Below, piece after piece: positions 8,996-9,185 of a stretch of 64,000 nt of DNA. The stretch is from Escherichia coli. GTDB lineage: Bacteria > Pseudomonadota > Gammaproteobacteria > Enterobacterales > Enterobacteriaceae. Position 1 is the stretch's first letter; every line of letters begins with the position of its first letter. Location of the stretch: the NCBI RefSeq assembly GCF_003334385.1, contig NZ_QOWN01000012.1; one strand, written 5' to 3'. Made by a program: the position numbers and the translations under genes. The notes beneath the pieces were generated by a model that was not told the DNA's origin, did not search any database, and saw only the letters and a program-made list of their open reading frames with translations.

Positions 8996-9185
8996 GATGC
9001 GATGCGCACGGGTAAAACGTGCCATTAATGTCGGATGCGGCGTGAACGCCTTATCCGACCTACGTTCGGCACCCGTAGGCCGGATAAGATGCGCCAGCAT
9101 CGCATCCGGCAATGCGCACAAGGTAACAAATGTGCCATTCATGTCAGATGCGGCGTGAACGCCTTATCTGACCTACGTTCGACAC
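8996..9185. repeat. BIME cluster: three REP units in alternating orientation, with an approximately 60-bp direct repeat
   Basis: REP cores at about 9030-9066, 9075-9112 and 9146-9182; the flanking gcgcac..gtgccatt.atgtc.gatgcggcgtgaacgccttatc motif occurs twice. Confidence 0.7.

What the first reader, a model, noticed from the sequence alone, without database searches (positions are those of the whole stretch)
8996..9185. BIME cluster with an internal 60-bp direct repeat between convergent speB and loiP
Three REP units alternate in orientation, and the first and third are embedded in a longer directly repeated context, indicating amplification of a REP-containing unit rather than independent insertions. 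Such clusters act as bidirectional transcript stabilisers or terminators and bind gyrase and IHF.
Basis: partly seen in the sequence, partly recalled or inferred. Interest (0 to 1): 0.2.

Follow-up and report, generated by a model that had tools for sequence, protein, structure and literature searches.

The report
Known REP (BIME-2) array, speB–loiP
The 205-bp gap between the convergent E. coli genes speB and loiP is filled by two tandem copies of a 113-bp unit made of Y and Z2 REP palindromes; this is an ordinary, already catalogued BIME-2 element whose copy number differs between strains.

Summary
Three REPs alternate in orientation: Y 9030-9063, Z2 9075-9110, Y 9143-9176. The direct repeat extends beyond the REP cores. 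Ungapped it is 66 nt at 88% identity with 113-bp spacing; gapped it is 75 vs 78 nt with 68 identities.

The whole gap, from stop codon to stop codon, is two 113-bp [Z2-linker-Y-spacer] units. The first unit carries a 23-nt deletion between ATGCGC repeats.

The linker is specific to this locus. Strain alleles differ by exact 113-bp steps: 90, 203-205 and 429 bp, holding 1, 3 and 7 REPs. Local unit amplification and contraction is therefore supported over independent insertions. E. albertii, E. whittamii and Escherichia sp. E1V33 carry the same array.

Across 5,426 E. coli genomes:
- 4,030 have at least 3 REPs.
- 252 have one Y REP.
- 359 have a 47-bp gap with a single REP.
- 774 have a gene island in place of the array.

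This is a BIME-2. Sutormin et al. (2019) list it as such, with gyrase cleavage sites. IHF binding belongs to BIME-1, and no IHF-like site is present here. No intrinsic terminator is present either. Published data place Rho-dependent termination of speB transcription about 380 nt past the speB stop codon (about 175 nt beyond the array), which makes the hairpins exonuclease blocks.

Already known; low interest.

The parts
8069..8989 (+). speB (agmatinase) CDS. Its stop codon TAA at 8987-8989 overlaps the first position of the array: TAAG sits where later units have GTAG.
8987..9074 (.). Unit 0 of the array (88 nt). It consists of a truncated Z2 left arm, a shortened linker, a Y REP and an 11-nt tail spacer. 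It equals a full 113-bp unit minus 23 nt lost between two ATGCGC direct repeats, plus a 3-nt linker indel.
   Evidence: unit alignments
9001..9026 (.). Linker mini-hairpin, copy 1 (GATG.GCACG / CGTGC.CATT).
9030..9063 (-). Y-type REP 1 (GTCGGATGCGGCGTGAACGCCTTATCCGACCTAC on +; GTAG is 5' on the - strand). It matches the canonical Y REP at 21830-21863 at 32 of 34 positions.
   Evidence: (I3)
9064..9074 (.). Tail-to-tail spacer GTTCGGCACCC between Y (CTAC) and Z2 (GTAG).
9075..9187 (.). Unit 1 of the array, a full 113-bp unit: Z2 REP, 32-nt head-to-head linker, Y REP, 11-nt spacer.
9075..9110 (+). Z2-type REP (GTAGGCCGGATAAGATGCGCCAGCATCGCATCCGGC), 36 nt. It matches the Z2 REP at 49390-49425 at 32 of 36 positions.
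   Evidence: (I4)
9111..9142 (.). Head-to-head linker, specific to this locus. It contains mini-hairpin copy 2 (9111-9139; AATG.GCACA / TGTGC.CATT).
9143..9176 (-). Y-type REP 3 (GTCAGATG...ATCTGACCTAC). It differs from REP 1 by a compensatory G-C to A-T change in the stem (9146 and 9169).
   Evidence: (I5)
9177..9194 (.). Second copy of the tail spacer (GTTCGACACCA) followed by CCAGGCT. This may be a remnant of the start of a further Z2. It abuts the loiP stop codon.
   Evidence: E. whittamii has a full Z2 here
9195..9953 (-). loiP (yggG) metalloprotease CDS; stop codon at 9195-9197.

Best explanation
This is a BIME-2 element: a tandem array of alternating Y and Z2 REP palindromes that fills the whole speB-loiP gap.

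Shown here:
- K-12 has two 113-bp units [Z2 - linker - Y - spacer]. The first unit carries a 23-nt deletion between ATGCGC repeats.
- The array sits at this locus in several Escherichia species.
- It expands and contracts in register by whole 113-bp units.

Inferred:
- The unit changes arise by unequal homologous exchange or replication slippage between the direct repeats, and/or by the REP-associated transposase TnpA(REP), which recombines BIMEs in vitro.
- On DNA the array is a gyrase binding and cleavage site between two convergent transcription units. This rests on published data for this element.
- On RNA the REP hairpins lack a U-tract and do not terminate transcription themselves. They most likely act as blocks to 3'-5' exonucleases and so set stable 3' ends. 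speB read-through transcripts are ended by Rho further downstream, inside antisense loiP. The same is presumed for loiP transcripts on the other strand.
For: Anatomy:
- REP palindromes with GTAG/CTAC feet in alternating orientation.
- The Y and Z2 types match canonical copies in the same window at 32/34 and 32/36 positions.
- The Rfam naRNA4 model, built on a Y-l-Z2 unit of REP325, aligns across Y 9143-9176 and Z2 9075-9110 at 53.5 bits, E 5e-9.

Local tandem duplication:
- Repeated non-REP flanks match at 26 of 32 positions.
- The linker was found in 4,030 of 5,426 genomes, median one place per genome, maximum 4; every place inspected lies at this locus.

Copy-number steps:
- Gaps of 90, 203-205 and 429 bp, that is +113 and +3x113.
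- In the 7-REP allele two internal units are 113/113 identical.
- The 1-REP allele equals a 3-REP allele minus exactly 113 bp, with the crossover inside a 30-nt identical stretch of Y.

Allele census:
- 4,030 + 252 + 359 + 563 + 211 = 5,415 of 5,426 genomes are accounted for.

Age:
- The same array lies between speB and loiP in E. albertii (5 REPs), E. whittamii and Escherichia sp. E1V33. The first-Y (GTCGG) and last-Y (GTCAG) signatures are shared with E. albertii and E1V33.

Structure:
- Both strands fold far better than shuffles: -86.6 and -94.6 kcal/mol, z about -5.2.
- There is a compensatory G-C/A-U pair in the Y stem: 8 vs 5 units.

Literature:
- Definition and strain variability of BIME-2, and TnpA(REP) recombination (PMC3333891).
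- This element is listed as a BIME-2 with gyrase cleavage sites: RifCfx 2, Oxo 2 (PMC6379681).
- A Rho-termination region at MG1655 3082496 (-), which is window ~9370 (+) (PMC7815308).
- REP and other stem-loops protect Rho-terminated 3' ends (PMC6061677).
Against: - None of the functions was tested here. Gyrase cleavage at this element was seen in only two of the four Topo-seq conditions (Cfx 0, Micro 0).
- No single-nucleotide 3'-end data for speB or loiP were found. The Rho-region call uses 800-nt windows, so its position is coarse.
- The head-to-head linker (32 nt) is longer than the 'l' linker of REP325: the Rfam alignment needs a 19-nt insertion and the score falls below the family threshold.
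- The mechanism of unit gain and loss cannot be decided from sequence. Slippage or recombination and TnpA(REP) give the same products.
- About 14% of E. coli genomes lack the array altogether, so it is dispensable.
Confidence: 0.92

Rival explanations
1. Three REPs arrived by independent insertions, and the similarity of the first and third is only the shared REP consensus.
For: REPs are dispersed at high copy. A 501-bp query containing them hits a median of 13 places per genome.
Against: - Identity continues outside the REP cores: 26 of 32 flank positions, and the linker alignment beats all 2,000 shuffles.
- The linker is found only at this locus.
- Alleles differ by exact 113-bp units, and some internal units are identical.
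Confidence: 0.02
2. It is a BIME-1 / RIP-RIB type element that binds IHF through its linker.
For: A BIME-1 with an IHF-like site does exist elsewhere in the window, at 21766-21863.
Against: - The middle REP is the long Z2 type, not Z1.
- There is no match to WATCAANNNNTTR with up to 2 mismatches in 8987-9197, against about 1.7 expected per 211 bp at that stringency.
- BIME-1 elements occur as single copies with a conserved L linker.
- The element is listed as a BIME-2 in PMC6379681.
Confidence: 0.02
3. The cluster is a bidirectional intrinsic (Rho-independent) terminator for speB and loiP.
For: There are very stable hairpins on both strands directly after both stop codons. BIMEs have been linked to transcription attenuation (Espeli et al. 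2001, cited).
Against: - No hairpin is followed by a T-run on either strand.
- Rho-dependent read-through is detected on the speB strand downstream of the array.
Confidence: 0.05
4. The array encodes a naRNA4-like nucleoid-associated RNA that works with HU in chromosome condensation.
For: The Rfam naRNA4 model matches 9078-9173 (-) at 53.5 bits, E 5e-9, and both hairpins are kept. Qian et al. report that RNAs with two REP hairpins bind HU.
Against: - The score is below the gathering threshold of 59.5, and the linker needs a 19-nt insertion.
- The model essentially recognises any Y+Z2 pair.
- There is no promoter-like site.
- 14% of strains lack the array and 11% have a single REP.
Confidence: 0.05
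5. The region encodes a small protein (ORFs 8997-9158 or 9035-9202 on the + strand).
For: ORFs of 53 and 55 aa are listed mechanically.
Against: - They run through the REP palindromes.
- Copy-number changes of 113 bp, which is not a multiple of 3, together with complete replacement of the gap in other strains, destroy them.
Confidence: 0.01

Closest known systems
BIME-2 elements of E. coli (Gilson/Bachellier classification; for example the sucB-sucC and tldD-yhdP BIME-2s)
   Same: - Alternating Y and Z2 REPs in tandem units.
- Linkers conserved within a locus but variable between loci.
- Copy number variable between strains.
- Gyrase cleavage.
- This very element is listed as a BIME-2 'yggG>-<speB'.
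   Different: Nothing essential. The first unit is internally deleted, the array abuts both stop codons, and only 2 gyrase sites are reported against 4-6 at sucB-sucC.
REP325 / naRNA4 (Rfam RF02564), the yjdM-yjdN BIME-2
   Same: The Y-linker-Z2 two-hairpin unit. The covariance model aligns end to end.
   Different: - REP325 has six 77-bp units with a short 'l' linker plus U motifs.
- Here the unit is 113 bp with a 32-nt linker.
- The score is below the Rfam threshold.
- No evidence of HU binding or a nucleoid role here.
BIME-1 / RIP / RIB elements (Y + Z1 with an IHF-binding L linker)
   Same: A pair of inverted REPs in a 3' intergenic region.
   Different: Z2 instead of Z1, tandem amplification, and no IHF consensus.
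REP 'stabiliser' hairpins at the 3' ends of Rho-terminated mRNAs (Newbury 1987; Dar and Sorek 2018)
   Same: Stable hairpins without a U-tract just after stop codons, with a Rho-dependent region downstream.
   Different: Stabilisation of speB or loiP mRNA by this array has not been measured.

Membership tests
REP / palindromic unit | An extragenic imperfect palindrome of 30-40 nt with a conserved GTAG next to the foot of the stem. | tested here: met
   Three palindromes of 34, 36 and 34 nt with GTAG/CTAC, all lying between the two stop codons.
REP / palindromic unit | High copy number dispersed in the genome. | tested here: met
   Queries containing the REPs hit a median of 13 places per E. 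coli genome by megablast. There are 6 canonical REPs in this 64-kb window.
BIME-2 | Built of Y and Z2 REPs in alternating orientation. | tested here: met
   32/34 identity to a canonical Y and 32/36 to a canonical Z2 in the window. The naRNA4 (Y-l-Z2) model aligns. The element is listed as BIMEs2 in PMC6379681.
BIME-2 | Occurs as tandem copies of a unit whose sequence is well conserved within a locus. | tested here: met
   Two units in K-12 (87-88% identical). A 113-bp period with 3.5 copies at 95% in the 7-REP allele.
BIME-2 | The number of tandem copies at a locus varies between strains. | tested here: met
   1, 3 and 7 REPs in E. coli, 5 in E. albertii. Allele counts over 5,426 genomes.
BIME-2 | [quoted passage not shown] | not testable with these tools
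   Literature only: 2 cleavage sites in RifCfx and 2 in Oxo Topo-seq at this element, 0 in Cfx and Micro.
BIME-1 / RIP-RIB | A Z1 REP paired with Y across a conserved L linker that carries an IHF site. | tested here: not met
   The middle REP is of Z2 length and sequence. No IHF consensus with up to 2 mismatches, whereas the positive-control BIME-1 at 21766-21863 has one.
naRNA4 (Rfam RF02564) | Score at or above the family gathering threshold (59.5 bits). | tested here: not met
   53.5 bits with a 19-nt insertion in the linker.
Intrinsic terminator | A G+C-rich hairpin followed directly by a T-run. | tested here: not met
   No terminator-like site on either strand of 8700-9500.
Translation-stalling REPs (Liang, Rudd and Deutscher 2015) | A REP hairpin within 15 nt of the upstream stop codon. 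| tested here: not met
   In K-12, 40 nt separate the speB stop from the Y1 stem and 22 nt separate the loiP stop from the Y3 stem (18 nt to its GTAG). The 47-bp allele does put a REP 1-2 nt after the speB stop.

The most novel reading that the evidence does not exclude
The locus-specific 32-nt head-to-head linker might carry a functional third hairpin. It is kept in 14 units from four Escherichia species, with 93% of cells paired and A-U, G-U and G-C all seen at one stem pair. It could act as a TnpA(REP) 'linker' recombination site or as an RNA processing site. Array length (1 to 7 REPs) might then tune gyrase loading or mRNA 3'-end stability between the convergent speB and loiP genes in a lineage-specific way.
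Probability: 0.08. Interest if true: 0.3.

Novelty: already known. Interest (0 to 1): 0.07.

Why it matters
It matters little beyond correct annotation. The locus is a clean textbook example of a BIME-2 array. Its unit structure, age (it predates the split of several Escherichia species) and in-register copy-number turnover can all be read directly from genomes. It also corrects the common habit of assigning IHF binding to all BIMEs. The allele series could serve as natural material for testing what REP copy number does to gyrase recruitment and mRNA 3' ends. The series runs from 0 to 7 REPs and accounts for 5,415 of 5,426 complete genomes.

Tried and rejected
- TRF on the window found nothing, because there are fewer than 2 copies and an indel. 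It works on the 7-REP allele.
- The exact IHF consensus scan of the whole window gave only 2 chance-level hits elsewhere. A mismatch-tolerant scan with a BIME-1 positive control was then used.
- The promoter and terminator scan of 8700-9500 was empty.
- Rfam gave only sub-threshold naRNA4 matches.
- Liang et al. 2015 (PMC4427526) is not held, so its criterion was taken from a citing paper.
- Dar and Sorek's supplementary tables are not held, so no single-nucleotide 3' ends for speB or loiP could be read.
- REP remnants at the island junctions gave only short, borderline matches: 14 of 16 columns and 12/13 identical, reached by 5 and 7 of 300 shuffles. These are not relied on.
- Covariation in the linker hairpin gave no pair with a change on both sides, so it remains a weak lead.
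- The small ORFs across the REPs were rejected.
- The E. coli representative in genome contigs did not match the linker pattern, presumably because it carries another allele.

Full report
**Where this is**

The window is E. coli and is base-for-base identical to K-12 MG1655 across this gap. speB (agmatinase) runs 8069-8989 on the + strand. loiP (yggG) runs 9953-9195 on the - strand. The two genes converge on a 205-bp gap, 8990-9194.

Yes. Three REP palindromes lie in the gap:
- 9030-9063, GTCGGATGCGGCGTGAACGCCTTATCCGACCTAC.
- 9075-9110, GTAGGCCGGATAAGATGCGCCAGCATCGCATCCGGC.
- 9143-9176, GTCAGATGCGGCGTGAACGCCTTATCTGACCTAC.

The outer two have CTAC at their 3' end on the + strand, and the middle one has GTAG at its 5' end, so orientation alternates.

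The direct repeat found without gaps is 9015-9080 vs 9128-9193: 66 nt, 88% identical, 113 bp apart. With gaps it is 8999-9073 vs 9109-9186, with 68 identical of 78 columns.

The identity is not confined to the REP cores. At the 113-bp offset, 13 of 15 positions left of the core and 13 of 17 right of it match (P about 4e-11). An alignment of the two linkers alone scores higher than all 2,000 shuffles. The '60 bp' is an underestimate.

**Anatomy**

I cut several alleles at each GTAGGC(C/T)GGATAAG and aligned the pieces. The gap is made of 113-bp units: Z2 REP, a 32-nt head-to-head linker, Y REP, and an 11-nt tail-to-tail spacer.

- K-12 has one full unit (9075-9187). A shortened unit (8987-9074) precedes it.
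- The shortened unit begins TAAG, with the speB stop codon in the place of GTAG.
- It lacks 23 nt. These are exactly what a deletion between the two ATGCGC repeats of a full unit (GATAAG-ATGCGC-CAGCATCGCATCCGGCA-ATGCGC-AC) would remove.
- After the last spacer, CCAGGCT runs up to the loiP stop. E. whittamii has a complete Z2 at that place.

The outer REPs match the canonical Y copy at 21830-21863 in 32 of 34 positions. The middle REP matches the Z2 copy at 49390-49425 in 32 of 36 positions, and it is of Z2 length, unlike the short Z1 at 21766-21794.

The Rfam model of naRNA4, which is one Y-l-Z2 unit of REP325, aligns end to end over 9078-9173 (-) at 53.5 bits. Both hairpins are intact, with a 19-nt insertion in the linker. 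The score is below the 59.5-bit family threshold.

**Local amplification or a family-wide motif?**

The 33-nt linker (9110-9142) was searched against 5,426 complete E. coli genomes with sensitive blastn at E up to 10. It was found in 4,030 genomes, with a median of one place per genome and a maximum of four. Every place inspected is at this locus.

The repeated context is therefore specific to this locus. This fits the published rule that BIME-2 linkers vary between loci but are conserved within one (PMC3333891).

**Strain comparison**

The gap exists in these forms:

| Allele | Gap length | Examples / calls | Genomes |
|---|---|---|---|
| One Z-like REP directly after the speB stop | 47 bp | L004 | 359 |
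| One Y REP | 90 bp | L002 | 252 |
| Three REPs | 203-205 bp | K-12, L006 | see below |
| Seven REPs | 429 bp | L003, L007, L008, identical to each other | see below |
| D-glucosaminate PTS operon in place of the array | 7.6 kb | L005, L009 | 563 |
| Two genes (hypothetical + DUF1266) in place of the array | 1.8 kb | L010 | 211 |
| Any allele holding the full linker (at least 3 REPs) | | | 4,030 |

- The sum is 5,415 of 5,426 genomes.
- Linker places on chromosomes total 5,154. If the surplus is all due to three-linker alleles, about 560 genomes carry 7 REPs and about 3,470 carry 3.
- This agrees with an evenly spaced sample of 59 chromosomes: 38 with 3 REPs, 6 larger, 3 with 1 REP, 4 with the 47-bp gap and 8 with islands.

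Three results show gain and loss of whole units in register:
- The length steps are exactly 113 bp.
- In the 7-REP allele two internal units are 113/113 identical.
- The 1-REP allele is a 3-REP allele (L006) minus exactly 113 bp, with the junction anywhere inside a 30-nt stretch of Y that the two copies share.

**Age**

A scan of one genome per species for the linker-Y junction found it only in three genomes. In each it lies between speB and loiP.
- E. albertii has 5 REPs.
- E. whittamii has a shortened first unit, one full unit and a terminal Z2.
- Escherichia sp. E1V33 has 3 REPs.

The shortened first unit is present in all three species. The GTCGG...CCGAC first Y and the GTCAG...TCTGAC last Y are shared by K-12, E. 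albertii and E1V33.

The duplication seen in K-12 is therefore old, and the two copies have since diverged to 87-88% identity. The recent events are the lineage-specific expansions and collapses.

**What it does**

DNA level:
- Sutormin et al. (PMC6379681) list this element as 'BIMEs2 ... 146 bp ... yggG>-<speB'. Gyrase cleavage sites are Cfx 0, RifCfx 2, Micro 0, Oxo 2. The 146 bp equals the span from the first to the last REP.
- They also report that BIME-2s are enriched for cleavage sites, that Y REPs are preferred over Z2, and that the signal rises when transcription is blocked.
- Gyrase binding is thus supported by published data for this element. It was not tested here.

IHF:
- The IHF site belongs to the L linker of BIME-1.
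- The array has no match to WATCAANNNNTTR even with two mismatches, although about 1.7 such matches are expected per 211 bp of this window.
- The BIME-1 between fbaA and mscS (21766-21863) has a one-mismatch match in its linker.
- IHF binding is not supported.

RNA level:
- Both strands fold much better than shuffles: -86.6 and -94.6 kcal/mol, z -5.3 and -5.2.
- No hairpin is followed by a T-run, so these are not intrinsic terminators.
- Adams et al. (PMC7815308, supplementary file 2) report a Rho-termination region on the speB strand. It peaks at MG1655 3082496, which is window ~9370, about 175 nt inside antisense loiP (Rho score 3.3, P 1e-6).
- Dar and Sorek showed that Rho-terminated transcripts are trimmed back to stable stem-loops, REPs among them.
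- The best reading is that speB transcription passes through the array and is stopped by Rho downstream. The REP hairpins then set and protect the 3' end.
- The same is inferred, without data, for loiP.

REP-less alleles:
- The two-gene island allele has terminator-like hairpins right after speB and right after loiP.
- The dga allele has hairpins without T-runs.
- This is consistent with a general need for a 3' hairpin at these positions. It is only an inference.

Translation stalling:
- The translation-stalling class of REPs requires a hairpin within 15 nt of the stop codon.
- In K-12 the distances are 40 nt and 22 nt, so K-12 does not qualify. The 47-bp allele would.

**How units are gained and lost**

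In-register changes with crossovers inside identical stretches fit unequal homologous exchange or replication slippage. TnpA(REP) cleaves at inverted REPs and in linkers, and it joins BIME pieces in vitro. Sequence alone cannot separate the two mechanisms.

**Structure conservation**

I aligned 14 linker-Y segments from four species. The Y stem is 98% paired and has one compensatory pair, G-C in 8 units and A-U in 5. One hybrid unit is unpaired at that position.

A small hairpin in the linker is 93% paired, with A-U, G-U and G-C at its inner closing pair, but it has no change on both sides. These units are related by descent, so this is weak evidence and only a lead.

**Verdict**

The element is a member of a long-known family and is itself already catalogued. 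Strain-to-strain variation in BIME-2 copy number has been described before. Interest is low.

Noticed in passing
window 8990-9194; loci L005, L009 (12401-20030), L010 (12401-14196): In 774 of 5,426 E. coli genomes the whole speB-loiP gap, stop codon to stop codon, is replaced by a gene island. In 563 genomes it is the D-glucosaminate PTS operon dagR...dgaE-dagF (7.6 kb). In 211 genomes it is two genes (hypothetical + DUF1266, 1.8 kb). Homology to K-12 breaks exactly at both stop codons. Only short, borderline REP-like remnants are seen at the right-hand junctions.
   Followed up: partly
window 7932-8068; L007-L010 (for example L009 10613-11344): Many strains carry a 732-bp ORF annotated as a hypothetical protein between speA and speB. 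K-12 and the window have only a 137-bp gap there.
   Followed up: no
window 21700-21920: A BIME-1-like pair (Z1 21766-21794, Y 21830-21863) lies between fbaA and mscS, with an IHF-like site in its linker at 21805-21817. It is flanked on both sides by near-identical terminator-like hairpins (GCCCGCTCTGCGGG + T-run + CGCC at about 21728-21757 and 21893-21920). The terminator may have been duplicated when the BIME was inserted.
   Followed up: partly
window 49390-49425: A lone Z2-type REP on the - strand.
   Followed up: no
L006 (strain N12), last Y REP of the gap: A hybrid Y REP has the GTCAG left arm and the CCGAC right arm, giving an A.C mismatch in the stem. It is either an intermediate of the compensatory change or a conversion tract ending inside the palindrome.
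   Followed up: no
L004 438-490 and L012 (E. whittamii) array end: The 47-bp E. coli allele (single Z-like REP + GTAATAAAATGCTTA) has the same right flank as the terminal Z2 of the E. whittamii array. It may be the array collapsed by exchange between first and last Z2, or an ancestral single-REP state. In this allele the REP starts 1-2 nt after the speB stop, inside the reported range for translation stalling.
   Followed up: partly
window ~9370 (+), inside antisense loiP: A published Rho-termination region (Adams et al. 2021, MG1655 3082496, - strand) implies that speB transcription normally runs through the array and into loiP antisense.
   Followed up: partly
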